A stretch of 56,980 nt of DNA from a virus. Lineage: Duplodnaviria; Caudoviricetes. Location of the stretch: positions 1 through 56,980 of the IMG/VR virus record IMGVR_UViG_3300028024_000012. One strand, given 5' to 3'. A program made the position numbers and the translations under genes. The notes below the pieces were generated by a model. The model did not search any database. It was not told where the DNA came from and saw only the letters and a program-made list of their open reading frames with translations. Of this stretch, positions 1 through 53,776 are shown piece after piece; within the stretch, counting starts at the first letter, position 1; each line of letters starts with the position of its first letter.

Positions 1-3
1 CCA

Positions 4-411
4 TCATGACATGTCTGTCGGACGATCCTGCGGATGAGATGCCGACACGGATTTAATGCGTGGCATCCAGCTCTCGCGCCTCGTCGTCCAGATTTCGTAA
101 GTCGGCTTGAATAAATCGGCCTGATCGAAGGCCCCAATCGGAATCTCAATCTCCGAGTTATCCCTGTCGCTTTCATAGACTGGCGCGCCGCAATCTTTGC
201 AACGATAGCGGCGCCCCTCGGCGGAGGTCGCATGCTCCGAAACGTTGCCACTCACCCTCACCGCATCGCGGGGATAAATCGCAAACATAGCAAAGGGAGA
301 GCCGGTGAATTTTCGGCAGGTGAAACAATGACAAATACCGACGCGATCAGGCGCTCCCATCGCCTCAAACCGGACTTGGCCGCATAAACAACTACCGGAG
401 AAAACGTCCAT
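4..411 (-). CDS. GFA (glutathione-dependent formaldehyde-activating / CENP-V) family protein, host side
   Basis: GSCLCG, CHCFTCRK and CKDCG Cys motifs; start set at MDVFSG. Confidence 0.85.
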   Translation of the reverse strand: MDVFSGSCLCGQVRFEAMGAPDRVGICHCFTCRKFTGSPFAMFAIYPRDAVRVSGNVSEHATSAEGRRYRCKDCGAPVYESDRDNSEIEIPIGAFDQADLFKPTYEIWTTRRESWMPRIKSVSASHPQDRPTDMS

Positions 412-637
412 ATCATTCTCCCTTGCTTGGCCGGGTCGGCTCCGCAAGGCCGCCTCTGCCCGCAGATCCTCAATGCCGGAACAATCGTATCAGAGCCTTT
501 TCCCTGCAGACTGTGACCTTGCCTGCCACGCAGCCTAGCGGCTTGCGCCAATGGACCCTGACAACCGGGGTTGGCACGCGGGAAAACCTCGACCTGTTCA
601 GTAAGTATTTAATTTTATGGAGAGAAATGAAAGTTAT

Positions 638-658
638 TGGCGGAGGGAGGGGGATTCG
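638..658 (+). repeat. Left att core (tggcggagggagggggattcg), duplicate of tRNA-Ser 3' end
   Basis: Exact match to 53683..53703. Confidence 0.95.
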
Positions 659-712
659 CTCAATACCCCCTGATGCAATGGTCCTTCAAATTGCTGCTTT
701 AAGCCGCGAAGG

Positions 713-784
713 GTGATGGTAGCAGCGGAGGGATTTGTTCAGTACCACCCGATTCCCAACTGGTCCATCCGCATCCGGTGTTGA
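713..784 (+). repeat. Second att-like / integrase C-terminal cassette (tRNA-Met-like 3' end)
   Basis: gtgatggtagcagcggagggatttgttcagtac parallels gtgatggcggagggagggggattcgctcaatac; encodes MVAAEGFVQYHPIPNWSIRIRC. Confidence 0.6.
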
Positions 785-898
785 TCTTATGCTGGCACGA
801 ACGCTATATCGAGCGGTTCTTCGCGGATGACTCTACTTGAAGGTGTATAATAGCGACACCAGATATGCCGGACACCAACTCAACCTGGAGAAACTACC

Positions 899-1150
899 AT
901 GTTTGACGATCCTAACGATCCACGGGTGATGCAGCATCAAATCCGGGAGCTGCATCAGCAGTCTATAAAGAGTGTCGCTAATAATGTAGCCCTGGCCTCG
1001 ATTCTTGCTGCTATCGCCACCAAACTCGATATCAGCATTGACGACGTCACCAAAGAAATGTCACGGGTTTATCCCAGTAGGCCGAACCAACCGATCGTGA
1101 CCGACGACGCCACGAAAATCGTCCAATTAATTTTGAATCGCGGACGTTAA
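899..1150 (+). CDS. Hypothetical moron protein (83 aa)
   Basis: GGAG RBS, TATAAT at 846..851, downstream hairpin, lower GC. Confidence 0.7.
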   Translation: MFDDPNDPRVMQHQIRELHQQSIKSVANNVALASILAAIATKLDISIDDVTKEMSRVYPSRPNQPIVTDDATKIVQLILNRGR

Positions 1151-1170
1151 CGCTGCAACTCTGAGGTTGC

Positions 1171-1194
1171 ATCCCGGCCCCGAAGGGCCGGGAT
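1171..1194. terminator. GC hairpin between convergent genes, probable terminator
   Basis: atcccggccc-cgaa-gggccgggat, 10-bp perfect stem; no clear U tract. Confidence 0.6.
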
Positions 1195-1211
1195 CTAAGT
1201 AGGACCTAATT

Positions 1212-1406
1212 CTATGCGTGCGACTCTACAAGTTGGAACTGCTCAGGGCAGTATCGCAGTTGCGTTAGGTCGCACTGCAGGGTCTGGGGAATGTCGCGGT
1301 ACTGCAAAACGACAAACTCGCCGGAGATTTCGATGATTGTGGCGGGGGTCCACCGCTTCGCGAGCTGCGAATAGACGTTCCAGATTTGGCCTACTTCGAT
1401 CAGCAT
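1212..1406 (-). CDS. Small hypothetical protein (64 aa, possibly SH3/Tudor-like beta fold)
   Basis: GGAGA RBS, protein-like composition. Confidence 0.6.
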   Translation of the reverse strand: MLIEVGQIWNVYSQLAKRWTPATIIEISGEFVVLQYRDIPQTLQCDLTQLRYCPEQFQLVESHA

Positions 1407-1527
1407 GGTGTTTCTCCATCGGTTGGGAATGTGCCGTCATCGCGACGGGACGATCTCAATATAAACCAGCAACATATTGTGCCAAAGCGGAAACAATGAG
1501 CCCCTATCTTGGGGTGCCATCTTGCAT

Positions 1528-1563
1528 TTGACTCTTATCTAAAAATGAGAACATTTAAGGAAC
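1528..1563 (+). promoter_or_regulatory. Promoter (-35 TTGACT) overlapped by an alphaproteobacterial LexA box
   Basis: GAAC-atttaag-GAAC at 1549..1563, 30 bp before ATG 1593. Confidence 0.75.
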
Positions 1564-1592
1564 ATGCGAGGTAAAGCCGGGAGGCCGACGCC

Positions 1593-2045
1593 ATGGCAAT
1601 CGAGCCGGAATTCTATGAATTTGCCAGTCATGAGATCGCCCGCCGCGGGGACCGCGCCCTGGGATTCGCCCGGGAGCAGCGCGACGCATGGCACCAGGGC
1701 CAGAGCGCCGAGGATCAGGCGCGACAGCTGGCTTTCTGGGACAAGGTTATCGCCGCGATCGAGGATCTGGAGCGCGCGACACCCAGCCCCGCCGTGCCGC
1801 CCTGCCTGCTCTGCGGATTCGTCGCGGAGAAAACGACGAGGCTGCCCGATGGTGGCATCGAGCAGTATTGCGCCGATTGCGGCTTGTTCCGGGTCGCCCA
1901 TCCGCTGGCTGGCGCCTGGGAAGCCGAACCCAAGGCCTGGCGCCTCGAGCCGGAAGTCGAGGCCTATCTCGACCGCTGCGCCGAGCGCGGCGAGATGCCC
2001 GTGCTGAGCGACTTCACCCTGCACCGCCTCAAAAGGAGTAGATAG
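1593..2045 (+). CDS. Hypothetical protein with CxxC...CxxC zinc ribbon, probably SOS-regulated
   Basis: GGAGG RBS; CLLC and CADC motifs. Confidence 0.75.
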   Translation: MAIEPEFYEFASHEIARRGDRALGFAREQRDAWHQGQSAEDQARQLAFWDKVIAAIEDLERATPSPAVPPCLLCGFVAEKTTRLPDGGIEQYCADCGLFRVAHPLAGAWEAEPKAWRLEPEVEAYLDRCAERGEMPVLSDFTLHRLKRSR

Positions 2046-2047
2046 CC

Positions 2048-2386
2048 ATGGATGAGGAAGCGACAGAACCGGTGCGTGACCTGCCCGTCCGGAACAGCCC
2101 CAGAAAGACGATCGAACTTGACCGCCTCACGCGCATCGATCCACAGGTCCTGAAGGACCTTGAATGGGACCTGGCGTTTGAATTGCAGAAGGTGCTGCGG
2201 CCGAGCGTGTTGCGGGAACTCACCAAGCGAGAACCCCAGGCGCCGCTCTGGGAGGAAAAATGGCCGAAGACGATCGCCGCGGCCCTGGTCGAGCGGATTC
2301 GGACGAGCAATTGGTACGTCACTAAGTTGCCACAAAGCCCATGGCACTCTGTTTCGCTCAATACGCGGGTTGATCGCGATGATTAG
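2048..2386 (+). CDS. Hypothetical protein (112 aa)
   Basis: AGGAG RBS, 2 bp after previous stop. Confidence 0.7.
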
Positions 2387-3039
2387 ACATCGCCATCCTT
2401 CTTCGCGCCGCGCGCCACGATCTTGAGCGCGCCATCCGGGAGCGGACGTTGCAGTTTCTTTGCTTCTTCCCACGGGGCCGCCATCCAGAGGTCGATTTCC
2501 TCGGGCAGGGTGAGGATGACGGGCATGGCCTTCGAATGGATGGCACCGACTTCCTTGTTCGGAGCGGACATCAAAAAGGCATAGAGGTTATTGGTGGTCT
2601 GGCCTTCCTTGACCTTGCGGACCGAGGTCCAGTTCGTCCAAAGGCCGGCAAAGAAGGCGAGAGGCCGCGTCTCATCCAACGCGAACCAGACCGGCGGCCT
2701 GGTGCTGTCGGGCAGCACCTCATTTTCGGCGAAGCTGGTGAAGGGCACCACGCAACGATGCTCGACCCCAAACCAACGCCGCCAATGTGCCGACTTCAAG
2801 TTGCGGATATTGGTGACACCCTTATCCGCGTTTTTGCCCACCAGGTATTTCGGCGGTGTCGGCATGCCCCAGCGGGCCATCGTCAGCTCGCGCCCGGCCG
2901 GCTGGTTGCGCACGATCGGCGCCGAATAATCGGGGAAGATGCCAGGCAGCGACGGCATATTGCCGGTGCGGTCGCTCATCGCGCGGGCGATGTCCAGGAT
3001 CGCTTTCTGGCCCTTGGTGATCGAATACAGATTGCACAT
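2383..3039 (-). CDS. SOS response-associated peptidase (SRAP/HMCES, YedK-like abasic-site protector)
   Basis: N-terminal MCN (catalytic Cys2), [27 protein letters not shown] motifs. Confidence 0.92.
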
Positions 3040-3071
3040 GGCACCCTCCCCGGACGGTCAGGATAGCCAGC

Positions 3072-3395
3072 ATGCGCGCTCCCGGCAAAGGCCCAATCGG
3101 CGGACGCCTGATCCTACGCCAAAAGGGCAAGATCGTGACGATCGGCCAGGCGGCCAGCCACTATCTCACCGCGATCTGCGGCAATTGCGAGCATTGGAAT
3201 GATGTGTCCCTTGACCGGCTGCGCGAAACCCATGGCGATCATTACCCGCTCACCGAGGTCTTCCGCCGGCTGAGATGCCGCCACTGCCGGCGGCAGGCAT
3301 ATGCTCTTGTGATAGACAGCTCTCGTCGGATGAAACGCTCGCGCGAGCCGCCAGCCGGCAACTTGGCAAAGTTCTGGTGGGAAGAGCGCTTTTGA
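3072..3395 (+). CDS. Hypothetical zinc-ribbon protein divergent from SRAP
   Basis: CGNC...LRCRHC; start uncertain. Confidence 0.6.
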   Translation: MRAPGKGPIGGRLILRQKGKIVTIGQAASHYLTAICGNCEHWNDVSLDRLRETHGDHYPLTEVFRRLRCRHCRRQAYALVIDSSRRMKRSREPPAGNLAKFWWEERF

Positions 3396-3399
3396 CGCG

Positions 3400-3948
3400 T
3401 CAATCCAGCTCGGAAAGGGCACCGCCGCTGCGCTTGACGTGACGATAGGGTTCCGAGACAGCCCGACGACTCTGCCAGTTGGCGAGATACTTTGCCGCCA
3501 GATCCGGGTTGCGGATCACCAGCAGGTTCTCCGCGTTCTTTTCCTGGGCCGCCTTGGTGAAATTGAAGCTGCCGGTGATGACGGTCTGGCCGTCGATCAC
3601 GATCACCTTGTTATGGGCGATCGCCACCTTGCTGTCGATCGTCACCGGCACGCCGGCATGCTGCAAATAGGTGGCACCAGTATATTTGGCGGTGGCCTGG
3701 CTCTTATCCAGGATGACCTGCACGTCGACGCCGCGGCGATAGGCATCGGCCAGGGCCTTGGCGATCGGCGCCGATGTGAAGCTATAGGCCTGCACCCGGA
3801 TCTGGTGCGACGCCCCGGCAATCGATTTCACAACCAGGTCGGTACAGTCACCGCCTGGCGTAAAGCAGACCGTTATGAGTGGCGCCGCTGTTGCCGGGGC
3901 GGCGACGGCCAGGAATAGGATAGCGAGGGTGATTCGGGCAAGACGCAT
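3400..3948 (-). CDS. Exported phospholipase D-family endonuclease (Nuc-like)
   Basis: Signal peptide; single HNKVIVID...GSFN (HKD) motif; NAEN. Confidence 0.9.
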   Translation of the reverse strand: MRLARITLAILFLAVAAPATAAPLITVCFTPGGDCTDLVVKSIAGASHQIRVQAYSFTSAPIAKALADAYRRGVDVQVILDKSQATAKYTGATYLQHAGVPVTIDSKVAIAHNKVIVIDGQTVITGSFNFTKAAQEKNAENLLVIRNPDLAAKYLANWQSRRAVSEPYRHVKRSGGALSELD

Positions 3949-4114
3949 GGCCGAGAATAGACCACAACTGAGCCCTGAGGAGGGAGGAGATTATTGCTGC
4001 GATGCGGCAAAAAAATTGATCGATAGCACCATTGTTTTTGATGGATCGTGCGCCCAGTTCCATTCTCGCACCCGCCGAAGAGCGGGTTATTTCTGGGACA
4101 TGGAAATTAGTATT

Positions 4115-4297
4115 ATGCCAGATGATAAGTCGAAAAGGGGCAAAGCTGATCGCGACAGAGTCAGCGCCAATGAGCCTTATGAAATCCGACGGGTCGCAAA
4201 AAGTGCCGACGTGTCGACGGAAAAAGCTCGCGAGGCCACCAAAGCGGCTGGCCCGATGAGGAAAAATATAATGAAGAAACTCGGTAAAAAGAAGTAG
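4115..4297 (+). CDS. DUF3606-like small protein
   Basis: MPDDKSKRGKADRDRVSANEPYE pattern. Confidence 0.7.
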   Translation: MPDDKSKRGKADRDRVSANEPYEIRRVAKSADVSTEKAREATKAAGPMRKNIMKKLGKKK

Positions 4298-4333
4298 CCG
4301 CAGTGCAGCTCGGCGTTTTGGGGGACGCCGAGC

Positions 4334-4771
4334 TTAGATCTGCATCAACAGCGAGATCCCGACCCCAATCAGGCAACCCAGACCGAACAGGCTGCCGGCG
4401 ACGAAAGCCGCCGCCTTATAGGCCCGCTGCTCATCGAGCCGCGCCCATTCCGAACCGACATTCTTCAGCCGGTGATACCAGCCTTCCTCACGCCAGGCGG
4501 CCAGCAGGCGGGACCAGCCCTCATCCGTCACCGGGACGGCACCGGCCGGCGCAGTTCCACCTGTGACCATCGCCACATAGGCCGGATCGGAGACCGTCTC
4601 CGGCCTGGTCAGGAGCAGCCGGCACCAGTGCTGATCCAGGAGCGCGTCGGTCCAGCCCCACCAGTTCTGGCGCCGATCGCGGTCCTGCTGATCCGAGGGA
4701 TGCAGCAGCGTTGTCAGCCAGGACCAGGCGCCGCCGGCGGCGACAACCGGAATCAGCATCTGTCGCTTCAT
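4334..4771 (-). CDS. Hypothetical membrane protein ending the late operon
   Basis: ATGA overlap with o-spanin; C-terminal hydrophobic helix. Confidence 0.6.
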   Translation of the reverse strand: MKRQMLIPVVAAGGAWSWLTTLLHPSDQQDRDRRQNWWGWTDALLDQHWCRLLLTRPETVSDPAYVAMVTGGTAPAGAVPVTDEGWSRLLAAWREEGWYHRLKNVGSEWARLDEQRAYKAAAFVAGSLFGLGCLIGVGISLLMQI

Positions 4772-5076
4772 GGCAGCGCGTCCTTTTGCGGATGGTTGGC
4801 GGTCGCAGCGTCATCGCGCCACTTCCTGATGCCTTCGATCTTGCTTCGGCAGTCATCCCCAGCCGACCAAAGATCGATCTTGTATTGGGCGTTATCGCCC
4901 TTCGTCGCGTTATCCGCCGGCGGCTCCGGATCGTCCTGGCAATGCAGGAATTCCTCTGGCGGGAACTGATATTGCACTTCCGTTTTGACGACTACGGGCG
5001 GCGGCGCGAAGATCCCGCAGCCGCTGATTGCCGTACAGCTCGACAGGATCAACAGCGTCCTGAGCACCCTTGACAT
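4768..5076 (-). CDS. o-spanin (Rz1-like lipoprotein)
   Basis: Lipobox ISGC, Pro-rich, overlaps 3' end of Rz-like gene. Confidence 0.75.
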   Translation of the reverse strand: MSRVLRTLLILSSCTAISGCGIFAPPPVVVKTEVQYQFPPEEFLHCQDDPEPPADNATKGDNAQYKIDLWSAGDDCRSKIEGIRKWRDDAATANHPQKDALP

Positions 5077-5419
5077 TTGCGATATCCCTTTTCACCTGAG
5101 ATGCCCTTACGGCCTTTTCCTGTGCATCAGCGATGGCCGCGGCCGTCACCTTGCGGTCGTATTCGGCCTGCCGGACTATGATGCGGATCGATCGCTGGGT
5201 TTCGGCGTTGGCGTCCACAACCACAGCCAGGCTCTTCTCTGCCGTTGCGACGCGCAGCTCGGCTGCCTCGAGGCGCGGGGCGACGATCAGCTTCCACATA
5301 CCGAATCCGGTACCGCCGGCTACTAGCCCGGCAACGATCACACAAGGAACCCAGACGGACGTGCCGCCGGAGAAGACGCCCGTAACAACGCCGAGACCTG
5401 TCTTGATGAAGCCGCTCAT
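4910..5419 (-). CDS. i-spanin (Rz-like)
   Basis: N-terminal TM helix then coiled coil; position in lysis cassette. Confidence 0.7.
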   Translation of the reverse strand: MSGFIKTGLGVVTGVFSGGTSVWVPCVIVAGLVAGGTGFGMWKLIVAPRLEAAELRVATAEKSLAVVVDANAETQRSIRIIVRQAEYDRKVTAAAIADAQEKAVRASQVKRDIANVKGAQDAVDPVELYGNQRLRDLRAAARSRQNGSAISVPARGIPALPGRSGAAGG

Positions 5420-5742
5420 GCCGCCACCCATTCGCCTTTGGTCAAGTAGCCATGCCATTCTCCGTCAGGACCGGTATTCTTGATGCTGGGTGTGATCGTC
5501 GGCGCATAGACATTCCCGTCCCACCGCCACCACTGGCTATCGGCGCTCTTGGTCACAACCAGTGCACCGCGACGGCCGTCCGGATCGTAGAAAGCGATGC
5601 GCAACTTTTCGCCATCGAGCACGGCGGCGGCATCCGCGAGCGGTTGATAGTCAATGTCCTGAAACTGCAAGCAGCCAGGCTGCGCGATATCGTCGATATC
5701 GATGCCGGCCTCGACGTGAATGCAGCGAAGCGTCCCGCTCAT
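5416..5742 (-). CDS. DUF6527-like protein
   Basis: WRWDGNVYAPTITPSI...WHGYLTKGEW motif; ATGA overlaps on both sides. Confidence 0.65.
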   Translation of the reverse strand: MSGTLRCIHVEAGIDIDDIAQPGCLQFQDIDYQPLADAAAVLDGEKLRIAFYDPDGRRGALVVTKSADSQWWRWDGNVYAPTITPSIKNTGPDGEWHGYLTKGEWVAA

Positions 5743-6323
5743 TGGCTCATCTCCTTCTGGTATCGGGCGATGCGATCGACATAGGTGATCGTTTCGACAG
5801 CGTTGCGGCCCGTCACCTGGGGGAGGCAAGCCTTGACCTGGGACCAGGCCAGGGCGTTGCCGCAGAGACGCGATGCCTTGCGGATATTGCCGGCGCCCGC
5901 ATTGTAGGAACCCTGCGCCAGGCGGTGCTTGTCGGGGTCGACGGCCGTCTTCCAGAACCTGCGCAGGCCCGCCATGTAGGAGGCGCCGACATCGATCGCG
6001 GCCGAGGGGTCGAGGACCGACCGGCCGGCATAACCGGCCTTCGGCGCCTCATCGGCCCAGGTCGGGTCCATGAACTGCGCCAGGCCCTTGGCGCCCGCCG
6101 GCGAGACGGCCAGCGGATCGAGCCTGGATTCCTGGCAGAGCTGCGCCTTCCAGCTGTAGAAGGCATCCCGCGCCGGGATATCCCGCCACCACCGCGCAAC
6201 GGCGGCGGCGATGCGGATATCGTAATCAGGCGAGGAGCAGGATGCCGAGGCCGATGATGCAGATGCCGATCCAGCGCAGGCCCAGATAAAGAGCGACAGC
6301 GCGATTGCCCTTAAGCATTTCAT
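5739..6323 (-). CDS. Endolysin, SLT-type lytic transglycosylase with N-terminal signal/SAR sequence
   Basis: QES, GAKGLAQFM, SYNAG motifs; start uncertain. Confidence 0.88.
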   Translation of the reverse strand: MKCLRAIALSLFIWACAGSASASSASASCSSPDYDIRIAAAVARWWRDIPARDAFYSWKAQLCQESRLDPLAVSPAGAKGLAQFMDPTWADEAPKAGYAGRSVLDPSAAIDVGASYMAGLRRFWKTAVDPDKHRLAQGSYNAGAGNIRKASRLCGNALAWSQVKACLPQVTGRNAVETITYVDRIARYQKEMSQ

Positions 6324-6549
6324 TCCACGAATCCTTGAAATTGATGCCTGCTCGACGGTCCAACCAGCGGGATTTCCAGACCAGGCCATAGACCACGATC
6401 ACCGCCAGCAGAAGCTTGACGATGTCGCGCTGCAGGTTGGCGTCGAGATAGCTGCCCACGTCACGCAGGATGAGGATGATCGCGGCGGCGACCAACAAGA
6501 ACAGCACAGGCGGCAGCGCCTTCAGCGCCGAGACGAGGTGTTTAAGCAT
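6226..6549 (-). CDS. Putative holin/antiholin (3 TM)
   Basis: Three hydrophobic helices, directly upstream of endolysin. Confidence 0.65.
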   Translation of the reverse strand: MLKHLVSALKALPPVLFLLVAAAIILILRDVGSYLDANLQRDIVKLLLAVIVVYGLVWKSRWLDRRAGINFKDSWNEMLKGNRAVALYLGLRWIGICIIGLGILLLA

Positions 6550-6550
6550 G

Positions 6551-6736
6551 TCACGATCCTTTGTCGGGAATCAGGGATTGCGGCGGACCCGGAATGAACC
6601 GCCGGATATCCTCGGTCAGTTGCCAGGCCTGGGCGGCCGGCAGGTTGAAGGTCTCTGGAAAGACGCCGTCATCGAAAGACAAGGCGACCCCCTCACCGGT
6701 CGGCTTCACCGACCAGGGCGCTTGCGTGATTCTCAT
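6551..6736 (-). CDS. Small hypothetical protein (61 aa)
   Basis: Fills gap in operon; MRITQAPWSVKP start. Confidence 0.5.
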   Translation of the reverse strand: MRITQAPWSVKPTGEGVALSFDDGVFPETFNLPAAQAWQLTEDIRRFIPGPPQSLIPDKGS

Positions 6737-6753
6737 GTGATTGTCCGGTAAGC

Positions 6754-7110
6754 CTACTTTTCGGCGACGCCGTAACGGTCGACCAGCCGCAGGATAATGG
6801 CCTCGATGCCGGCCGGCCCGAGATACGAGACCATGATGATGACGGCGATCGCGGCCTTGCCGTGCAGCGCGAAATAATCCGCGACGCCATCGGCGATGAA
6901 GCCGATCGCCAGGGCCGTCGGCACCTCCCAAAGCAGATGTGCCGACCAGAAGCTCCGTTGCCGTTTCTGGACCTGACGGATGTGATAGGTCATCCGGCCG
7001 ATCCAGGCCAACAGGAAGGTCAAGATGCCGCTCCAGAGCGCCTGCCGCAGATCAGGCGGCAACAATTGATCCATGCCATCGTCCCCCTCGATGCGGTTTT
7101 TGATATCCAC
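6754..7110 (-). CDS. Phage holin (LydA-like family)
   Basis: LLWEVPTALAIGFIA...VSYLGP pattern, 3 TM; start may be 7074. Confidence 0.75.
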   Translation of the reverse strand: MDIKNRIEGDDGMDQLLPPDLRQALWSGILTFLLAWIGRMTYHIRQVQKRQRSFWSAHLLWEVPTALAIGFIADGVADYFALHGKAAIAVIIMVSYLGPAGIEAIILRLVDRYGVAEK

Positions 7111-7116
7111 GCCACC

Positions 7117-7389
7117 CTATACGTCAGTTCGATCCGCAACAGCTGCGTCAATGACCGCCGCCGCATCGACCTGACCGAGATCAAGTGCACCGCTCTCGCT
7201 GATTTTCGTCGCGGCCCTCTGCGCAGCGATACCAAGCCGCACGAAGAACTCAGCGGCGACTTGCTCTGTAAACGTGACACCCGTCGATTTGCCATTTACC
7301 GTGGGCCGGTCAACCGCAATGCCCGCCCCATCGTTTCGATATTTTATCCGCATCGCAGATCCCATCATCAGTTGGTGGTTACGTCCCAT
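7117..7389 (-). CDS. Hypothetical protein
   Basis: Continuous with operon; start may be 7368/7365. Confidence 0.5.
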   Translation of the reverse strand: MGRNHQLMMGSAMRIKYRNDGAGIAVDRPTVNGKSTGVTFTEQVAAEFFVRLGIAAQRAATKISESGALDLGQVDAAAVIDAAVADRTDV

Positions 7390-9005
7390 CCCTTGGCTAT
7401 CAGGGAAGCCTTTGCAGCCGCGCCGACGGAGCCGGGTGCAGCGCTCGTACCGCCGCTCAGATCACAATAGCCGTTGATCGCGCCAGCGCCGTCAAGACTG
7501 CCCAGAATGGCATCGACGACATTCTCCGGAAGGGCCGCACCGGTGCATTCGCAATAAGTGAGCGTGGGGGTGGGCGGAATCACCAGACCAGTCGTAGATG
7601 TTGCTTCCTGCCAACTGAGCCATGCGAGGCCAGCGAATTGATGCAGGTCGAGATTCAAACCGTTCGTTCTGCTGAGGGTGAACTCAATGTCCGACGCCGT
7701 TGAAACCGCCGGCAAATTGAGCGTTTGCAAACCACCGGCTTGATACAGGCCCAGACCTTGAAGCCCCGATGCTGCGCTGATATCGATAGACTCCAGCATT
7801 TCATCAGCGTCGTCAAACTGGACGTTGAACAGCTGCAACGCCGGCGACGTCGACAGGGCTATCGAGGTGAGACCGTCATTTCCTCCGGCATGGCGAAAGA
7901 ACTCCACCAGACCAACCAAACCGGACAGCTCAACCGATGTCAGATTTGGACAACCGCTGATCTCAAGCGATTGGAGGTCGGATAAGTTGCCGAGCGTCAG
8001 AGTCGACAGCGTCGCTTGATAATTGCCGTCGAACAGGGAAAATTCTGTCAATTGGGTGAGTGCCGACAGATCCAATTCAGGTTGAAAGTAGGACCAGAGG
8101 TAAAGGTATTGGAGCCCTGTGCAATCGGTGAGGTCGAGGCTCGTGACATCGACATTTCCGAGGTCGAGATTGACGATGGCCGTGTCACCACTCACATCAA
8201 GACTGAACGCGCCATTGCCTGAAAATAGATAGATGTTGGTCAGAGACGTGCACCCTGACAGATTGATGGATGCCTCGGCTTGCTGCTGGTCTACCCAGAA
8301 CGAGACCAGGTTGGGACAATCGGACAGATCATATGATGTAAATGCCGCGTTCGACATGCCCCAAAATTGGATACCCGAATCACCGGACCGGCTATAATTG
8401 TGGCCCGCTGTCGCGCCCGTCCCATCAGTGAAATAGAACAGGCTTTCGCCACTGCCCGGCCCACGCACATTCACTGCATCAGCGATATCATCAACGAACC
8501 CTGCGATGCCGACATATTTGCCGGTCGCCGGCTTCACGCCGCCGCCGCCCGCCCAGTCCGCGATCTGCTGCACCCGTCGCTCACCATCAGCGACCAGGGC
8601 GAAGACCGGAGACCAGCCATTGACGCCGTTATCGCCTGCCGCGCCATCGGCGCCCGGATCGCCCTGGTCGCCTTTGTCACCCTTGGCGCCAGGTGCGCCA
8701 GCGGCGCCGGGTGCACCGTCCGCGCCAGGGAGGCCCTGTGCGCCTTGCTCACCCTGATCTCCCCTGTCGCCCTTCTCACCGGTTGCACCATTGGCACCGG
8801 GCTCGCCTTGATCGCCTTTTTCACCACGTTCACCTGGCACACCGGCCGCACCAGGCAGACCCTGTTCGCCGGGATCACCCTTGGCGCCAGGCGCGCCATC
8901 GGCACCGGGAATGCCGGGATCCCCCTTTTCGCCCCGCAAACCGCGCCGCAATTCGACCGTTCGCGAAACCTTCCTTTGAACCACGACGACGATGTTGCCG
9001 CTCAT
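7368..9005 (-). CDS. Collagen-like + leucine-rich-repeat tail fibre/adhesin
   Basis: About 35 Gly-X-Y triplets, then LxxLxLxx/DLSxCxxL repeats. Confidence 0.85.
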   Translation of the reverse strand: MSGNIVVVVQRKVSRTVELRRGLRGEKGDPGIPGADGAPGAKGDPGEQGLPGAAGVPGERGEKGDQGEPGANGATGEKGDRGDQGEQGAQGLPGADGAPGAAGAPGAKGDKGDQGDPGADGAAGDNGVNGWSPVFALVADGERRVQQIADWAGGGGVKPATGKYVGIAGFVDDIADAVNVRGPGSGESLFYFTDGTGATAGHNYSRSGDSGIQFWGMSNAAFTSYDLSDCPNLVSFWVDQQQAEASINLSGCTSLTNIYLFSGNGAFSLDVSGDTAIVNLDLGNVDVTSLDLTDCTGLQYLYLWSYFQPELDLSALTQLTEFSLFDGNYQATLSTLTLGNLSDLQSLEISGCPNLTSVELSGLVGLVEFFRHAGGNDGLTSIALSTSPALQLFNVQFDDADEMLESIDISAASGLQGLGLYQAGGLQTLNLPAVSTASDIEFTLSRTNGLNLDLHQFAGLAWLSWQEATSTTGLVIPPTPTLTYCECTGAALPENVVDAILGSLDGAGAINGYCDLSGGTSAAPGSVGAAAKASLIAKGWDVTTN

Positions 9006-9412
9006 CGCGTGACCTCCGCCGTCACGACGAAGAAGCCCCGCAACAGCGTGATCACCGCGCCGTCCGGGGCTGTCACTTCGAGGTCATAGACATAGTTGGA
9101 AACCACGGGAAAGCCGAAAGCCAGGCATGAGGCCGCGCGATCGATGTCGGATAGCGCAACCAAGCCACGTGTCTCTGCCGCCGACAGCGCCAGGCTGATC
9201 GTGCCCGTCGCGCCGCCCAGCGTGATCTTGCCATTGGCGGTCGACAGTTCCAGCAGGACGTCCGGCGATTGGAGCATGCTGCGGATCTGCATGCGCGCCG
9301 AATAACCGGTGAGGTCGAAGAGCGGCCCAGTTTCGGTGTCCTGATAGAGCAACAGGTCCTGATCGAAGCTGTCGCCCTGCTGGCAGTCCAGATTTTGCAG
9401 CGCCGGTGTCAT
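9002..9412 (-). CDS. Fibre-adaptor protein (BppU N-terminal-like)
   Basis: QGDSF...FDLTGYSARMQIR...YVYDLEV...LLRG pattern. Confidence 0.7.
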   Translation of the reverse strand: MTPALQNLDCQQGDSFDQDLLLYQDTETGPLFDLTGYSARMQIRSMLQSPDVLLELSTANGKITLGGATGTISLALSAAETRGLVALSDIDRAASCLAFGFPVVSNYVYDLEVTAPDGAVITLLRGFFVVTAEVTR

Positions 9413-9417
9413 ACAGA

Positions 9418-10059
9418 TCAGCCTTCCGCCGGCGGCTGCAGCGCGGCGGCGAAGGCCGCATCGATCGCCGCCGCCGTCGTCAGCTCCCCGCTGCCGATCC
9501 GCGCATCGATCGCTGCTTCGGCGGTGAAGCAGGACTGCACATGCGCGGCAACGGCGGTGAAGATACCGGTGATCTGCTCCTGGCCAAGCTCCACCCAGCC
9601 CTCCCCCGCCTTGAACTTGATGGTGAGGGTCTGGTTTGCGTCGAGATAGGCCTTGGTGCCGTTGATCAGTGCCTTGGACCGGTCATCGGTCGCGATCTGC
9701 ACGCCGCCAACCGTGATGCCGCCGGTCTCGATCTCCCACCGCTTATTGGCGGCATAGGCCAGGAGCTGATCCTGCGGCAGCGTGGGATTCGCAGCGTCGG
9801 CGATCTCCTGCGGCGTCAGCGGCCGGCTGGTCCAATGCCGCCGGACCACGCTGTCCAGCTTCTCATAGGTCTCACCCGTGACCAGGAAGGCCGCCGGGTC
9901 GGGTAACTCATCGCTTTCCATCGACCAGATGCCAAGCGCCAGGCGATCGGCGGTCGGCAGTGCATATGCCGCCAGCGACACCGGGGCACCCCGATCGTTG
10001 ACGAATTCGACGGGTACCAGCGAGGTGATCGCCGCGCCTTGTGCATCGAGATAGTACAT
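9418..10059 (-). CDS. DUF4376-type tail fibre assembly protein
   Basis: KRWEIETGGITVGG...TDDRS...HVQSCF pattern. Confidence 0.8.
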   Translation of the reverse strand: MYYLDAQGAAITSLVPVEFVNDRGAPVSLAAYALPTADRLALGIWSMESDELPDPAAFLVTGETYEKLDSVVRRHWTSRPLTPQEIADAANPTLPQDQLLAYAANKRWEIETGGITVGGVQIATDDRSKALINGTKAYLDANQTLTIKFKAGEGWVELGQEQITGIFTAVAAHVQSCFTAEAAIDARIGSGELTTAAAIDAAFAAALQPPAEG

Positions 10060-10068
10060 GTCAGTTCC

Positions 10069-11049
10069 TTATCCTTGGATGACCGCGACGGAATACGTGC
10101 TCGATGGAAAGAATGTGGTGACAGAGCCTGCGGCGTTGTTTCCGAAGACCGTAACGTAGTGATAGCCCTCGGACAGGCCAGGAATTGGTGCGCCAACATA
10201 TCCGCCGTTGGTTTGTGCGGCTGACGTGGTGGTACCACCGCTTCGTCCGGTCGATGCACCATCGACATAAAGAAACGTGTTGATCGACGACTGGGCAACC
10301 GGGTTGGCGGCATAACCGATTGCCAGATAGGGAATTGTGTCCGCCCAGAGGATGAATTCCGACCGAAGTTCGGTATGCAGTTCCACTGCCGTCGTACTCG
10401 ACAGTGTTCGATTTGCAGTTGCAACCGCAGAAATACCCTTTGGGCGCCGATTGAACCACGAGAGCACAAAGCATTGTGTCGCGCTATCGACCCAGGCCGG
10501 ACCGGCGCCGGGCCGGGCCATGCCGACCAATGTGCGCGTGGGATCGGCGCTCTTGATCGGAATGCCGGTGCCCGGCTGGATCGTATAGGCCGTGGTCGAG
10601 GCTTCCAGAGTCAGCACGCCAGCCGCCATATAGGCATAGATGTAATAGGTGGTGCCGGGGGTAAGGCCGGCCGGGGGCAGCGTCACGCCGGCAGCGGGGA
10701 TGATGGCATTGGCGCCGTTGATCCGCAGCCGGTTACCGTCATGCGGCGACAGCAGCAGATTCGCACCGGACTTGCTGAGATAGCATTGGCCGATCTCGCT
10801 GGCTGCTGCCGAGGCGATTAGCAGCTGGATCGCCGCGAACATCTGCTTGTCATCGGCCGGATTGAGCGCCATGGCCGCGCCTTCGATGACGCCCGCAATC
10901 TCTTCCTGCACGCGATTGAGGAATTCCGGCGTGCAGATCGTGCCGGCATGGCCGGCATTGGCGTCGCAACCCGTGAAGAAACCGGGCGTGCCGCCGGCCG
11001 GATAGTCCGGCTTGACGACGACGGCGGAGGAATCATCAATGCGATACAT
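10069..11049 (-). CDS. Tail fibre protein
   Basis: MYRID...GFFT...FLNRVQEEI N-terminus typical of Mu-like fibres. Confidence 0.8.
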   Translation of the reverse strand: MYRIDDSSAVVVKPDYPAGGTPGFFTGCDANAGHAGTICTPEFLNRVQEEIAGVIEGAAMALNPADDKQMFAAIQLLIASAAASEIGQCYLSKSGANLLLSPHDGNRLRINGANAIIPAAGVTLPPAGLTPGTTYYIYAYMAAGVLTLEASTTAYTIQPGTGIPIKSADPTRTLVGMARPGAGPAWVDSATQCFVLSWFNRRPKGISAVATANRTLSSTTAVELHTELRSEFILWADTIPYLAIGYAANPVAQSSINTFLYVDGASTGRSGGTTTSAAQTNGGYVGAPIPGLSEGYHYVTVFGNNAAGSVTTFFPSSTYSVAVIQG

Positions 11050-11052
11050 GCA

Positions 11053-11664
11053 TCACTCCAGTTCGAAGGTGACAATGGTATGGGCGGGGGCGGCGCGCAG
11101 GATGACGCAGCGCAGGACATCGAAATTCGGGATGGTGCAAAGCGGGTCGCCGGCGGCGAAGCACCCGGCCCTGGCCGGACTTACCGTCAGGCCCAGCACC
11201 TTGACGGTCCACCAATAGGGACAGGACCCGACCCTCATGCAGCCCGCCCGGGCGATCCCCACCCGGGACGGAAAGTGCTCGATGATCTCGATCTCGAATC
11301 CGGCCTGTTCGGCGATCGCGATGTAATAGGCCTTGGTCTGGCCGCCCCGGGCCGCCAGTTTCAGGCAGACCGCGCGCTGCCGCTCGGCCAAGGATTGGGC
11401 AGGAGGCGTGCATTCATCCGGCAGGCCGAGGACGCGCTCCCAATCGGGCAGCATTTCGATAGCCGTGCAGGGAAAGCTTTCCCGGTTCAGCAGATCGCAG
11501 CCGCGGGCATGCTGCCGCTCCATCTGGTCGCCGACGACCGACCAGTATTTGCTGAGCACCGTGCCGTCCTGGCGCGGCCAGGCCAGGCCCTGGGGCAACA
11601 GGTCGAGCGCCTGCTGCGTGAAGTCTTCCGCCGTCAGGCCGCAGAGCGCCTCGATTACCGCCAC
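11053..11664 (-). CDS. Baseplate wedge protein, YmfQ/DUF2313 (Mu gp48-like)
   Basis: LLPQGLAW, LPDWERVLGLP, PAHT motifs. Confidence 0.88.
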   Translation of the reverse strand: MAVIEALCGLTAEDFTQQALDLLPQGLAWPRQDGTVLSKYWSVVGDQMERQHARGCDLLNRESFPCTAIEMLPDWERVLGLPDECTPPAQSLAERQRAVCLKLAARGGQTKAYYIAIAEQAGFEIEIIEHFPSRVGIARAGCMRVGSCPYWWTVKVLGLTVSPARAGCFAAGDPLCTIPNFDVLRCVILRAAPAHTIVTFELE

Positions 11665-11676
11665 GATGCCGCCCCG

Positions 11677-12762: not shown

Positions 12763-13231
12763 TCTGCGCCCCAATCTGCTGCCAGGCCCAGTCGTAGCGC
12801 TGGTCCACCACCCGGCCGTCATTGCGGTAAATCGTGATCACCAAGTCGAGCCGATCCATGGCCTGGATATTCCACTCGGCCGAGACGTCGATGCGCTGGG
12901 CGACGCCGTCAGCGATCAGCCACTGCAAGGCTTCCTCGGCGTAGAATTCCGCCCGCTGCCGCGTGGCCTCGGTCCGCTTCTCCCGCGTGAGCAGCCAGAG
13001 CCGCGAGCCGATCGGCCCGTCGCTGTCGTTATCGGCCCACCAGCCGCGGCGATCCGGCGGCGTCGCACCCGTCGCATCGGGAATCACGTCATCGGCGGCG
13101 GCCAGACGGTCGCTGAACAGCGAAATGATGACGGCCGTCTTCAGATCGGCATCGGATTCCAGCGATGGCGGCGCAAGCATCCAGTCGCCCGACAAGTTGT
13201 CCGGCGACCAGACATGGACGAAATCGGTCAT
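12752..13231 (-). CDS. Mu gp46-like baseplate protein
   Basis: AVIISLFSD, RRGWWAD, IGSRLWLL, EALQWLI. Confidence 0.92.
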   Translation of the reverse strand: MTDFVHVWSPDNLSGDWMLAPPSLESDADLKTAVIISLFSDRLAAADDVIPDATGATPPDRRGWWADNDSDGPIGSRLWLLTREKRTEATRQRAEFYAEEALQWLIADGVAQRIDVSAEWNIQAMDRLDLVITIYRNDGRVVDQRYDWAWQQIGAQNAV

Positions 13232-13243
13232 GGGATGCCTTCG

Positions 13244-13522
13244 TTAAGGGCCGATGCGATACCAGGGGCGGCCGGTCGTTGCATGGCCGCAGGCGGCGTG
13301 ATGGCCGGCGTGACAGACCGGGATGCCGCCGACCCGATGCCAGCCCGAGCCCTCGACCATGGGCGGCGGCGGCGAATGTGGCGGCGGGCCGTGAGCCTCG
13401 ACCAGATCGCCGATCACCACGACGGGCTGACCCTCGATTCGGTACCAGGTGTTGACTTCGGTCTGCTGCGCGCCGCCGGCGGAATCAAGCTGATGCACCG
13501 CCACACCGAAAGTATCTGTCAT
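13244..13522 (-). CDS. PAAR-like spike tip protein
   Basis: G.PVVVIGD / G.PVCHAGH..CGH repeats, follows spike gene. Confidence 0.7.
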   Translation of the reverse strand: MTDTFGVAVHQLDSAGGAQQTEVNTWYRIEGQPVVVIGDLVEAHGPPPHSPPPPMVEGSGWHRVGGIPVCHAGHHAACGHATTGRPWYRIGP

Positions 13523-15092: not shown

Positions 15093-15100
15093 CGCCGGGC

Positions 15101-51953: not shown

Positions 51954-52111
51954 AGGCTCAAACCCCACCGCCGGCACAGCCGTCACACCCGACAGTGATC
52001 GCCCTGGCGCAGCTGCTTGCCCGGGTCGCCCTCGCGGCGCACAATGGCGCCGCACCGGAAGAGACACCGACCAATGACAATGATCCGCGCCGCCATCTAC
52101 GCCAGGTATAG
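51941..52111 (+). CDS. Small helical protein upstream of integrase, candidate directionality factor
   Basis: GAGGA RBS; ALAQLLARVA helix; overlaps integrase start. Confidence 0.5.
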   Translation: MQKLKAQTPPPAQPSHPTVIALAQLLARVALAAHNGAAPEETPTNDNDPRRHLRQV

Positions 52112-53723
52112 CTCCGACCTGCAATCCGCGAATTCGATCGAGGACCAGCTGAGCCTCTGCCGCGACAGGGTCGCGCAGCTCGGCGCCGAGACGGTCGAGA
52201 TCTATACCGACGCGGCAATCAGCGGCGCCCAGATCATGACGCGGGCGGCGGTGCGGAAGCTGCTGGCCGATGCTCGCGCCGGCCGGTTCGATATCCTGCT
52301 GACCGAAGCGCTCGACCGGCTGTCCCGCAGCCAGGCCGATATCGCCACCATCTTCGAGCGCCTGAGCCATGCCGGCATCCGGATCATCACTTTGTCCGAG
52401 GGCGAGGTCAGCGAACTGCATATCGGCCTGAAAGGCACGATGAACGCCCTGTTCCTGAAGGACCTGGCCGCCAAGGTGCGCCGGGGCCAGCGCGGCATGG
52501 TCGATCGCGGCAAGGCCTCCGGCGGCCTCGCCTATGGCTATCGCGTGGTGCGGCGCATCGGGCCGGACGGCGAGGTCGAGACCGGCCTGCGCGAGATCCA
52601 TCCGGACCAGGCCGAGGTCATCCGGCGCATCTTCCGGGAGTTCATCGACGGCCGGTCCAGCCTGAAGATCGCCAGCGGCCTCAACAGCGACGGCATCCCT
52701 GCGCCGCGCGGCGGGCTGTGGAACCGCAGCAGCATCAGCGGCAATCGCGGCCGGGCGGGCGGCATCCTGCACAACCGCCTCTATATCGGCCGGATCACCT
52801 ATGGGCGCCTGACCTTCCGCAAGGACCCGGATACCGGCAGGAAGCGCGGCACCGCCATGCCCGAAAGCGGCTGGACAACCCAGACCAACGAAGCGATGCG
52901 CATCATCGACGACGAGACGTGGCACCAGGCGCAGAAGGCCCTCAGCGCCTATGACGGCCTCGCCACCGCCAAATGCCGCCGGCCGAAGCGGCTGCTCTCT
53001 GGCCTGGTCACCTGCGGCTGCTGCGGGGCGGCCTATATCGTCATCGACAAGGAGCGCATGGGCTGCTCGTCCAACAAAGAGGGGCGCGGCTGCACCAATG
53101 GAAGGCGGGTGCATTCCGACATGCTCGAACGGCGGACCTTGGACGGGCTGCGCAACCAGATGCTCGCACCGGATGCCATCTCAGCCTTTGTCCGGGAATA
53201 CCACGCCATCTGGAAGCAGCAGCGGGCCGATTCCCTGGGCGACCGTAGCCGGATCGAGCGCAGCCTGAAAGAGGTCGAGGGGAAGATCGGCCGGATCGTC
53301 ACTGCGATCGCCGAGGGCACCGACGTGCCGGCGATGCGGACAACCCTGAAGGATCTGGAGGGGCAGCGCGCGGGGCTGGCACGGCGCCTGGCCGATATGC
53401 TGGACCCGACCGTCATCCCCATGCAGCCGAACCTGACAGAGACGTACCAGCGCCTGGTGGACGATCTGGCCGCCACGCTGAACGCCGCCACCGAGGACCG
53501 CACCCGGGCTTTCGGCCTGCTGCGCGGGCTGATCGACCGGATCGTGCTGCATCCGACCGAGAAGCGGGCCGGATTCGAAATGGAGATTTTCGGGCAATTG
53601 GCAGGGATTCTGCGGCTTGCAAGCGGTCAAGAGGTGGAATGTTCTCCGACCGTTCTCAATGCGAGCAATCAGGGGTTAGTGATGGCGGAGGGAGGGGGAT
53701 TCGAACCCCCGATAGGGATTTAA
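52074..53723 (+). CDS. int: Large serine recombinase (integrase)
   Basis: YARYS catalytic Ser, DRLSR, YGY, recombinase domain, LLSGLVTCGCCG Zn ribbon, coiled coil. Confidence 0.96.
   Translation: MTMIRAAIYARYSSDLQSANSIEDQLSLCRDRVAQLGAETVEIYTDAAISGAQIMTRAAVRKLLADARAGRFDILLTEALDRLSRSQADIATIFERLSHAGIRIITLSEGEVSELHIGLKGTMNALFLKDLAAKVRRGQRGMVDRGKASGGLAYGYRVVRRIGPDGEVETGLREIHPDQAEVIRRIFREFIDGRSSLKIASGLNSDGIPAPRGGLWNRSSISGNRGRAGGILHNRLYIGRITYGRLTFRKDPDTGRKRGTAMPESGWTTQTNEAMRIIDDETWHQAQKALSAYDGLATAKCRRPKRLLSGLVTCGCCGAAYIVIDKERMGCSSNKEGRGCTNGRRVHSDMLERRTLDGLRNQMLAPDAISAFVREYHAIWKQQRADSLGDRSRIERSLKEVEGKIGRIVTAIAEGTDVPAMRTTLKDLEGQRAGLARRLADMLDPTVIPMQPNLTETYQRLVDDLAATLNAATEDRTRAFGLLRGLIDRIVLHPTEKRAGFEMEIFGQLAGILRLASGQEVECSPTVLNASNQGLVMAEGGGFEPPIGI
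53641..53655 (+). promoter_or_regulatory. LexA box inside int, next to right att
   Basis: GTTC-tccgacc-GTTC in context aatGTTC...GTTCtc. Confidence 0.55.
53683..53703 (+). repeat. Right att core
   Basis: Exact match to 638..658. Confidence 0.95.
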
Positions 53724-53776
53724 GTCCCTATAACGGTTTAGCAAACCGCCGCCTTCAGCCGCTCGGCCACCCCTCC
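53683..53776 (-). tRNA. tRNA-Ser(GCT)
   Basis: GGAGGGG...GCGGT-TTGCTAA-ACCGT, long variable arm, GGTTCGAATCC, encoded CCA. Confidence 0.97.

What the first reader, a model, noticed from the sequence alone, without database searches (positions are those of the whole stretch)
637..784. Tandem 'att + integrase C-terminus' cassettes: possible target-switching integrase
Seen: the left end holds two ~79-bp paralogous units. Unit 1 is the tRNA-Ser 3'-end core and reads (M)AEGGGFAQYPLMQWSFKLLL*. Unit 2 starts gtgatgg, exactly as int does just before attR, and reads MVAAEGFVQYHPIPNWSIRIRC*. The GF.QY...WS pattern is shared. Unit 2's core (reverse complement AATCCCTCCGCTGCTACCA) looks like the 3' end of a different tRNA, resembling alphaproteobacterial tRNA-Met ends as I recall them. 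Inference: the phage stores a spare attP with a matched integrase tail. Recombination at gtgatgg would swap both the target tRNA and the C-terminal peptide. A simple relic of an earlier integration site is the alternative.
Basis: partly seen in the sequence, partly recalled or inferred. Interest (0 to 1): 0.9.

Follow-up and report, generated by a model that had tools for sequence, protein, structure and literature searches.

The report
Second, unused tRNA-Met attachment site in prophage
A soil prophage that integrates into a tRNA-Ser gene with a serine integrase carries, 79 bases further in, a complete second attachment module for a tRNA-Met gene. It is most likely a leftover of a change of integration target, which makes such target changes testable.

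Summary
The window holds a 53-kb prophage bounded by a 21-bp repeat of the tRNA-Ser(GCT) 3' end (638-658 and 53683-53703). Its only integrase is a large serine recombinase (LSR) whose reading frame runs into the tRNA. An independent soil run shows the empty site breaking exactly at 658, so unit 2 is phage DNA.

Unit 2 (713-784) holds GTGA, then 21 nt identical to the 3' end of a tRNA-Met(CAT). That tRNA occurs in all five genomes closest to the host. Next comes a tail homologous to the phage-side arm of real tRNA-Met junctions in that host family. The tails are coding: four have 22 codons and stop at the same codon.

Homologous LSRs target fMet, Met, Phe, Thr, Glu or Ser tRNAs, so targets change often. 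Of 32 attP/attL-type sites examined, only the window has a second unit. No junction using unit 2 was found.

Best reading (0.6): a former or spare attP(Met), left by an in-frame 79-bp insertion of the Ser module. A working second attP remains possible (about 0.2). Programmed cassette switching is unsupported.

This scan's earlier notes concern this window only.

The parts
1..637 (.). Host DNA downstream of tRNA-Ser (GFA-like ORF 4..447 on the minus strand)
   Evidence: A contig of the independent soil run X2 covers 1-658 with 2 differences, then continues as tRNA-Ser. ORF; the GFA-like label is recalled from the CxC motifs and was not searched.
638..658 (.). attL core: 21 bp identical to the 3' end of tRNA-Ser(GCT), left copy of the prophage direct repeat
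   Evidence: The empty-site contig breaks exactly after 658.
659..702 (+). Tail 1: phage-side (P') arm of attP(Ser). In the excised circle it supplies the last 14 codons and the TAA stop of the integrase (..GF|AQYPLMQWSFKLLL*).
   Evidence: Homologous to tail 2 and to other tails.
703..712 (.). 10-nt spacer between the units (GCCGCGAAGG)
713..719 (+). GTGATGG, a 7-bp direct repeat of the integrase end at 53679-53685. Its last three bases are the CCA end of the Met core.
   Evidence: Met-type integrase relics end ..GGGGTAGTGA|TGG.
717..737 (-). Unit-2 core: 21 nt identical to the 3' end (T-loop to CCA) of a 75-nt tRNA-Met(CAT). Identity stops at the same T-loop position as in unit 1.
738..784 (+). 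Tail 2: P' arm of an attP(Met), with an intact 15-codon tail and TGA stop (VQYHPIPNWSIRIRC*)
   Evidence: tblastx gives 70.8% identity over 24 aa to the attL-type junction in G411. Codon comparison. It keeps all positions shared by at least 6 of 8 P' arms.
52017..53723 (+). Large serine recombinase (integrase). Its frame runs 41 nt into the antisense strand of tRNA-Ser.
   Evidence: Pfam Resolvase 3e-21, Recombinase 1.8e-21, Zn_ribbon_recom 1.3e-07. It is the only Resolvase hit, and there is no Phage_integrase hit in the record.
53683..53703 (.). attR core: right copy of the 21-bp repeat, forming the 3' end of the intact tRNA-Ser
53683..53776 (-). tRNA-Ser(GCT), the integration target
   Evidence: ARAGORN.

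Best explanation
Unit 2 is a genuine second attP-type module carried by the phage. It comprises the last four bases of an integrase gene (GTGA), the 21-nt 3' end of the host lineage's tRNA-Met(CAT), and the phage-side arm that also encodes the integrase's last 15 residues.

The phage belongs to a clade of large serine recombinases. In this clade attP overlaps the 3' end of int, and the target is the T-loop-to-CCA end of a tRNA. The clade has changed target tRNA repeatedly.

The most likely history (inferred) has three steps. An int/attP(Met) junction of the type ..CAGGGGnTAGTGA|TGG-Met core-tail received a 79-bp in-frame insertion (Ser core, tail 1, 10-nt spacer, GTGA), with GTGATGG as microhomology. 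The integrase frame was thereby redirected into a new attP(Ser). The old attP(Met) was left 79 bp downstream, out of the reading frame of int.

Integration now runs through unit 1 (shown: 21-bp repeats and the empty site). Unit 2 is not needed for this. It is either idle or at most a secondary site.
For: Shown:
1. Borders and enzyme. There are 21-bp repeats at 638-658 and 53683-53703. The empty attB is seen in the independent run X2, breaking at 658. The record has one LSR and no tyrosine integrase.
2. The unit-2 core equals the tRNA-Met 3' end 21/21 in L023. It is also exact in all 5 genomes closest to the host flank and in 8 of 83 family genomes.
3. Tail 2 is homologous to real junctions at tRNA-Met in the host family: the G411 attL-type site, G451 and L159. 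It keeps every position shared by at least 6 of 8 P' arms.
4. The tails are coding. Four tails have 22 codons and stop at the same codon, using TGA, TAG, TAA and TAG. Unit 2 against the G411 relic gives 4 identical, 7 synonymous and 5 non-synonymous codons.
5. Targets change often. In a starred 22-row clade the integrases sit at fMet, Met-type, Phe, Thr, Glu and Ser tRNAs, and the window is sister to a Glu(TTC) integrase (99*).
6. The tandem is not a family feature: 1 of 32 attP/attL-type sites.
7. Direction of the event. The window integrase's last 13 nt before TGG match 12/13 those before the Met core in relic elements of the same family (L158, L168). Unit 2 keeps only GTGA.
Against: - By the integrase body, the nearest relatives target Glu and Thr, not Met.
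- The one Met-type relic with a scorable body (L155) is only 37% identical over residues 217-496. The 'ancestral Met' direction therefore needs a mosaic 3' end and rests on a 16-nt in-register match that BLAST alone does not call significant (E 2.9).
- Unit 2 shows no decay. Its core is exact, its tail frame has the full family length, and all conserved arm positions are kept. A long-idle relic should have drifted, so this fits a recent event or continued use.
- No closer relative (above 55% integrase identity) was found, so conservation of unit 2 could not be tested.
Confidence: 0.6

Rival explanations
1. Working second attP. The same integrase uses either attP1 with tRNA-Ser or attP2 with tRNA-Met. 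The phage then has two landing sites in one host, or a fallback when one is occupied or differs in a new host.
For: - Unit 2 is complete for about 23 bp left and at least 45 bp right of the identity end.
- Its tRNA is present and exact in the host's closest relatives.
- The inner arms of the Ser and Met sites are nearly the same, GGGATTYG|AACCCCCGA.
- The P' arms are alike.
- The module shows no decay.
Against: - The only observed integration uses unit 1.
- No unit-2 junction was seen in viral contigs or among 7 metagenome hits.
- No relative has two units (0 of 31).
- Left of GTGA the arm differs from Met-type integrase ends.
- Whether this integrase binds the outer Met arm is untested.
Confidence: 0.22
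2. Stored cassette for target switching. Recombination at GTGATGG replaces the attP and the integrase tail together, as a regular part of the phage's biology.
For: - A 7-bp direct repeat lies in frame at both units.
- Deleting the 79 bp would fuse int to an intact Met core and a full-length tail.
- The clade changes targets often.
Against: - The repeats are direct, so the event is an irreversible deletion.
- The window holds no second recombinase.
- The tails are not target-specific: the same motif follows Met, Thr and Glu cores.
- 0 of 31 relatives store a cassette.
- No deleted form was found.
Confidence: 0.05
3. Extra integrase-binding site without strand exchange, for example a site that titrates or positions Int near attP/attL and so tunes integration or excision.
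For: An attP-like site lies 79 bp from the working one, in the same orientation, with conserved arm positions.
Against: - Accessory sites are not a known feature of large serine recombinases (recalled knowledge).
- Such a site is absent from 31 relatives.
- An exact match to a tRNA end is not needed for mere binding.
Confidence: 0.08
4. Chance resemblance, host DNA or assembly artefact.
For: The tails alone are only weakly alike (28 of 2000 shuffles reach the score). The record is a metagenome-derived virus contig.
Against: - The core is an exact 21/21 match, and the tail is homologous to real junctions.
- The empty site shows that 659 onward is not host DNA.
- A Logan contig of run X1 spans 1-3000 with no differences, though X1 may be the source sample.
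Confidence: 0.02

Closest known systems
Paracoccus phage vB_PamS_Pami6 (phiPam-6): serine recombinase with integration in a tRNA-Met gene (PMC6536676, passages read)
   Same: A temperate alphaproteobacterial siphovirus whose integration module is a serine recombinase and whose site is a tRNA-Met(CAT) gene. This fits the large fMet-targeting part of the family found here.
   Different: One site only is reported. No overlap of int with attP and no second attP appears in the passages I read. Its supplementary table and figure, which may show the att sequence, were closed. I did not compare sequences.
Model large serine integrases (phiC31, Bxb1, A118, TP901-1)
   Same: Same three-domain build: Resolvase, Recombinase, Zn ribbon. 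A single integrase lies next to a short attP, and integration needs no arm-type sites (recalled).
   Different: The model enzymes target protein-coding or intergenic sites and share only a few bases between attP and attB (recalled). Here attP carries 21 nt of a tRNA end so that the tRNA is rebuilt, attP lies inside the int frame, and a second attP-type module follows.
Myxophage Mx8 intP/attP (recalled, not read here)
   Same: attP lies within the integrase coding sequence, so integration gives the prophage integrase a different C-terminus. The target is a tRNA gene.
   Different: Mx8 Int is a tyrosine recombinase. No tandem heterologous attP is known to me.
SSV-type 'suicidal' tyrosine integrases of Thermococcales (PMC7253208, abstract and passages read)
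   Same: attP lies inside the int frame and the targets are the conserved 3' ends of various tRNA genes. Closely related integrases have switched target, and the att-encoded protein segment tolerates the change. A model of switching through successive integrations and recombination between int pieces is proposed.
   Different: These are archaeal tyrosine recombinases in which integration splits the gene in the middle. Here a bacterial serine recombinase changes only its last 6-15 residues, and both the old and the new attP stand side by side in one genome.
Tandem arrays of integrative elements at one tRNA gene
   Same: Several direct repeats of a tRNA 3' end with int-end/core/P'-arm hybrids are seen here at tRNA-Glu of G004 and in L159.
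   Different: Those repeats are all of the same tRNA and lie kilobases apart, with elements between them. The window's two units are of different tRNAs, 79 bp apart, and both lie inside one phage.

Membership tests
Large serine recombinase (phage-type serine integrase) | N-terminal resolvase catalytic domain, recombinase domain and zinc-ribbon domain in one protein of about 450-700 aa | tested here: met
   PF00239 3e-21, PF07508 1.8e-21, PF13408 1.3e-07 in a 568-aa frame.
Large serine recombinase (phage-type serine integrase) | Catalytic serine motif near the N-terminus | tested here: inconclusive
   The translation reads ..AAIYARYSSDLQ... This resembles the Y-x-R-x-S motif as I recall it. No alignment to characterised enzymes was made.
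Large serine recombinase (phage-type serine integrase) | Catalyses attP x attB recombination at a central dinucleotide; excision needs a directionality factor | not testable with these tools
   Only the products (attL, attR) and the empty attB are seen. The crossover can lie anywhere in the 21 bp. No directionality factor was sought.
tRNA-targeting integrative element that rebuilds its target | Direct repeats equal to the tRNA 3' end at both borders, an intact tRNA at one border, and an empty site in other DNA | tested here: met
   21-bp repeats, intact tRNA-Ser(GCT), and an empty site in run X2 breaking at 658.
Integrases with attP inside their own reading frame (Mx8 IntP type; SSV type) | The int frame crosses the crossover region, so the integrated and excised forms differ at the C-terminus | tested here: met
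   The frame ends ..GF|EPPIGI* in the prophage and would end ..GF|AQYPLMQWSFKLLL* on the circle. Tails of relatives keep length and motif. Any effect on the protein is untested.
Programmed C-terminal cassette switching (shufflon/Rci, Gin/Cin/Min invertible tail-fibre segments) | Alternative 3' cassettes bounded by specific recombination sites in inverted orientation, so that switching is reversible | tested here: not met
   The units are direct repeats 79 bp apart. Only a 7-bp direct repeat is shared beyond the tRNA-like cores. There is one recombinase in the record.
Programmed C-terminal cassette switching (shufflon/Rci, Gin/Cin/Min invertible tail-fibre segments) | The cassette store is conserved among relatives | tested here: not met
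   A second unit is found at 1 of 32 attP/attL-type sites, the window only.
Functional attP of a serine integrase (for unit 2) | Two half-sites of about 20-25 bp around the crossover that the integrase binds, plus a matching attB in the host | tested here: inconclusive
   The sequence is complete for about 23 bp on the left and well beyond on the right, with conserved arm positions kept. The matching tRNA-Met is present in the 5 nearest host relatives. Binding and recombination are not testable here.

The most novel reading that the evidence does not exclude
One serine integrase serves two tandem attP modules. The phage could integrate at tRNA-Ser or at tRNA-Met of the same host. Alternatively, a single in-frame 79-bp deletion between the GTGATGG repeats could convert it into a tRNA-Met phage with a full-length alternative integrase tail. 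Either way this would be a natural, modular way of carrying and exchanging integration targets, and a source of serine integrases with reprogrammable attP modules.
Probability: 0.2. Interest if true: 0.8.

Novelty: new variant of a known kind. Interest (0 to 1): 0.55.

Why it matters
How site-specific integrases acquire new targets is an old open question, and intermediates are rarely seen. Here the new (Ser) and the presumed old (Met) attachment modules lie side by side in one phage. Both are complete, and both match tRNAs of the host lineage. The surrounding clade of serine integrases has moved among at least six tRNA targets.

This gives a concrete model that can be tested at the bench: exchange of a module of about 80 bp at the int/attP junction. 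The test is one integrase against two attP and two attB sites.

It also draws attention to a large, little-described group of alphaproteobacterial serine integrases that target tRNA 3' ends and whose last residues change on integration. If the integrase uses both sites, it would be a natural dual-target serine integrase, which is of interest for genome engineering.

Tried and rejected
- Exact searches for the unit-2 and unit-1 junction strings in viral contigs found nothing. The same genome may be left out of those scans.
- blastn of 600-1200 against the phage collection found no match.
- The metagenome scan for GTGATGG plus the Met core gave 7 loci. None was preceded by unit 1 or followed by tail 2. 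Three of them (L156, L160, L161) were plain tRNA-Met genes with an unrelated hairpin upstream.
- I asked whether the window integrase's last 45 residues are specifically Met-type. They are not. The best tblastn hits are spread over fMet, Glu, Thr and Phe types, so I dropped a mosaic-C-terminus claim at the protein level. Only the last 13 nt are kept as a lead.
- I looked for other Ser-type junctions in the host family. No Ser core followed by non-tRNA sequence was seen in the loci examined (L170-L204). Hits listed without a locus were not examined, apart from the five stretches fetched.
- No integrase lies between the two Met cores of G411. That region is a selenocysteine island, so it gives an attL-type scar only, not a working Met-type element.
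- The first version of the second-unit scan was wrong: the probe overlapped the target and a regular expression failed. It was redone, where L016 could not be anchored and is left out.
- Runs X5 and X6 gave only short, low-identity pieces and no information on the site. Their partial cover is not used as evidence.
- Literature searches for natural tandem, dual, second or alternative attP and for serine integrases at tRNA genes listed engineered dual-attP constructs, the Paracoccus virome paper and the archaeal switching paper. None of the papers listed or read described a natural tandem heterologous attP. Most listed papers were seen as listing rows only.
- I did not determine whether the CAT tRNA is elongator Met or lysidine-modified Ile2.
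- Structure and complex prediction were not used, because they would not decide site use.
- The 83-genome family sample includes G449 and the class sample includes G244, both marked unpublished. No specific claim rests on either; they only count in denominators.

Full report
**What is at the coordinates.** The left end of the window reads as follows:
- host flank
- TGGCGGAGGGAGGGGGATTCG (638-658)
- a 44-nt tail ending in TAA (659-702)
- a 10-nt spacer (703-712)
- GTGA (713-716)
- TGGTAGCAGCGGAGGGATTTG (717-737)
- a 47-nt tail ending in TGA (738-784)

The two units are 79 bp apart. A three-way alignment with the integrase end at attR shows the shared GTGATGG and the common GGGATTYG block.

**The mobile element and its enzyme.**
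- ARAGORN finds one tRNA, Ser(GCT), at 53683-53776 on the minus strand. Its last 21 nt (53683-53703) repeat at 638-658.
- The frame 52017-53723 is a large serine recombinase: Resolvase, Recombinase and Zn_ribbon_recom. It runs into the antisense strand of the tRNA.
- The record holds no Phage_integrase-family match and only this one Resolvase match.
- A 747-nt contig of an independent soil run (X2, another study) lies on 1-658 with two differences. It then continues with AACCCCCGATAGGGATTTAAGTCCCTATAA, which is the window's 53704-53733. This is the empty attB.
- It fixes the left border at or before 658. Everything from 659 on, unit 2 included, therefore travels with the phage.

**Unit 2 copies a real tRNA of the host lineage.**
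- The host genome is not held, because G000 is the virus record itself.
- The right flank is most like genomes of the family that holds two Dongia MAGs. The best match is G432 at 79% nucleotide identity, followed by G425, G446, G439 and G411.
- All five carry a 75-nt tRNA-Met(CAT) whose last 21 nt equal 717-737 exactly.
- Across the 83 family genomes the exact 21-mer occurs in 8, and a one-mismatch form in 4 more. The module therefore fits the host's own subclade, not alphaproteobacteria in general.
- Identity to the tRNA ends after GATTTG. That is the same T-loop position at which unit 1 leaves tRNA-Ser (GATTCG).

**Unit 2 has a real phage-side arm, and the arms are coding.**
- In G411 a second copy of the Met core lies 14 kb from the tRNA. 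It is followed by ttcaatatcacccgttttccatttggtc.., which tblastx aligns to 713-784 at 70.8% over 24 residues.
- G451 has a further attL-type copy.
- Metagenome locus L159 has an int end plus Met core plus P' arm.
- I read each tail in the integrase frame. The window's unit 2, the G411 Met scar, the attL of a 52-kb tRNA-Thr prophage in G411 and one attL at tRNA-Glu in G004 each have 22 codons. They stop at the same codon with TGA, TAG, TAA and TAG, and share ..HP..WS[IV]RI[KR]x*.
- Unit 2 against the G411 scar shows 4 identical, 7 synonymous and 5 non-synonymous codons.
- So the phage-side arm encodes the C-terminus that the integrase has in the excised state. The same tail type goes with Met, Thr and Glu cores, so it is not target-specific.
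- Unit 2 keeps every position shared by at least 6 of 8 arms.

**The integrase family.**
- A scan of species-representative genomes gave 574 confirmed relatives among 600 candidate stretches, and the best 80 were kept.
- In 38 of these 80, ARAGORN calls a tRNA overlapping the int 3' end. There are 34 with anticodon CAT (32 with the initiator-type end CCCCGCAACCA, 2 with the elongator-like end), 2 Glu(CTC) and 2 Phe(GAA).
- Many other loci are attP forms that carry 14 to about 48 nt of tRNA-fMet.
- In the host family, 14 of 83 genomes have a relative at E <= 1e-80. The closest are 50-54% identical and sit at Glu(TTC), Thr(CGT) and Glu(CTC).
- I built a FastTree of 100 integrases and labelled targets with my own regular expressions. 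Most of the family is at fMet.
- A starred clade of 22 rows holds fMet, an elongator-like CAT tRNA, Phe, Thr, Glu and Ser targets. The window is sister to a Glu(TTC) integrase (99*), although two long branches meet there.
- Target change is therefore frequent in this clade.

**Is a stored second unit a family trait?** No. I probed 32 attP/attL-type sites (the window and 31 relatives) with their own unit against the next 450 nt. Only the window gave a clear second unit (z 4.9, 0 of 300 shuffles). The next best were 11-13-nt matches with z up to 2.9. This probe finds only second units that resemble the first.

**Origin.**
- The window integrase ends CAGGGGTTAGTGA|TGG. Relic integrase ends next to tRNA-Met in the same family (G451/L168, L158) read CAGGGGGTAGTGA|TGG, which is 12 of 13 in register.
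- Unit 2 keeps only GTGA of this.
- The simplest reading is that a Met-type int/attP junction received a 79-bp in-frame insertion: Ser core, tail 1, spacer and GTGA, flanked by GTGATGG.
- This is inference. BLAST alone gives the 16-nt match E 2.9.
- The protein-level C-terminus is not specifically Met-type, and the integrase body groups with Glu and Thr types. A mosaic 3' end, or the reverse order of events, is therefore not excluded.

**Function.**
- Integration through unit 1 is shown.
- For unit 2 nothing is shown. No junction to tRNA-Met and no form lacking unit 1 turned up.
- On the other hand, the module is undecayed and its target is present in the host lineage.
- My estimates: idle former or spare attP 0.6, working second attP 0.22, binding site without exchange 0.08, programmed cassette switch 0.05, artefact or chance 0.02.

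**Known relatives in print.**
- A Paracoccus virome paper lists one active phage, Pami6, with a serine recombinase and a tRNA-Met site. It says sites of the other serine-recombinase prophages were not identified (PMC6536676, passages).
- Archaeal SSV-type tyrosine integrases with attP inside int switch among tRNA 3' ends (PMC7253208, abstract and passages).
- Five searches found no natural tandem heterologous attP among the papers listed or read.
- Mx8 intP/attP and the properties of phiC31, Bxb1 and A118 are recalled, not read here.

**Limits.**
- The host genome and close phage relatives are missing.
- Run data were contigs only.
- Supplements were closed.
- The CAT tRNA may be elongator Met or Ile2.

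Noticed in passing
L123 (G411:C3:65000-84000), 2510-16497: Two exact copies of the 21-nt tRNA-Met 3' end lie 14 kb apart. They enclose a SelD-like protein, an FDH-like molybdopterin oxidoreductase, SelA, SelB and tRNA-SeC. No match to the window integrase lies between them. The distal copy carries an LSR-type P' tail. A whole selenocysteine-trait island thus sits in a serine-integrase att scar.
   Followed up: partly
window 52017-53723 with 659-702: Integration rewrites the integrase C-terminus..GF|EPPIGI* in the prophage and ..GF|AQYPLMQWSFKLLL* on the circle. In relatives the excised-form tail keeps its length (22 codons from the CCA-end codon) and the motif HP..WS[IV]RI[KR]x*, with many synonymous changes. 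This points to a protein-level role.
   Followed up: partly
G004:C21 (L151-L154), three repeats of the tRNA-Glu(CTC) end: A tandem array: the attR at tRNA-Glu plus two further core copies 10.5 kb and 17.4 kb away. The middle one is preceded by an int-end-like ..tatcgg. This suggests two elements stacked at one tRNA.
   Followed up: no
L058, L066, L068, L073, L081, L084, L097, L098: A subgroup of the integrases ends in GTTGCGGG(C)CCCCGCAACCA, which is the tRNA-fMet acceptor end in the opposite orientation forming a hairpin. In L074 and L098 a tRNA-like sequence follows on the other strand. The geometry of site use appears to differ here.
   Followed up: no
L155, L157, L158, L168 (next to tRNA-Met): Decayed integrase remnants. 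Only residues of about 217-496, or the last 45, are still alignable, and stops lie upstream. They remain fused to tRNA-Met in several soil metagenomes and in G451, so relic attR sites persist in this host group.
   Followed up: partly
window 2383-3039 (minus strand): A 218-aa ORF beginning MCNLYS.. looks like an SRAP/HMCES-type protein (recalled motif). It was not searched here.
   Followed up: no
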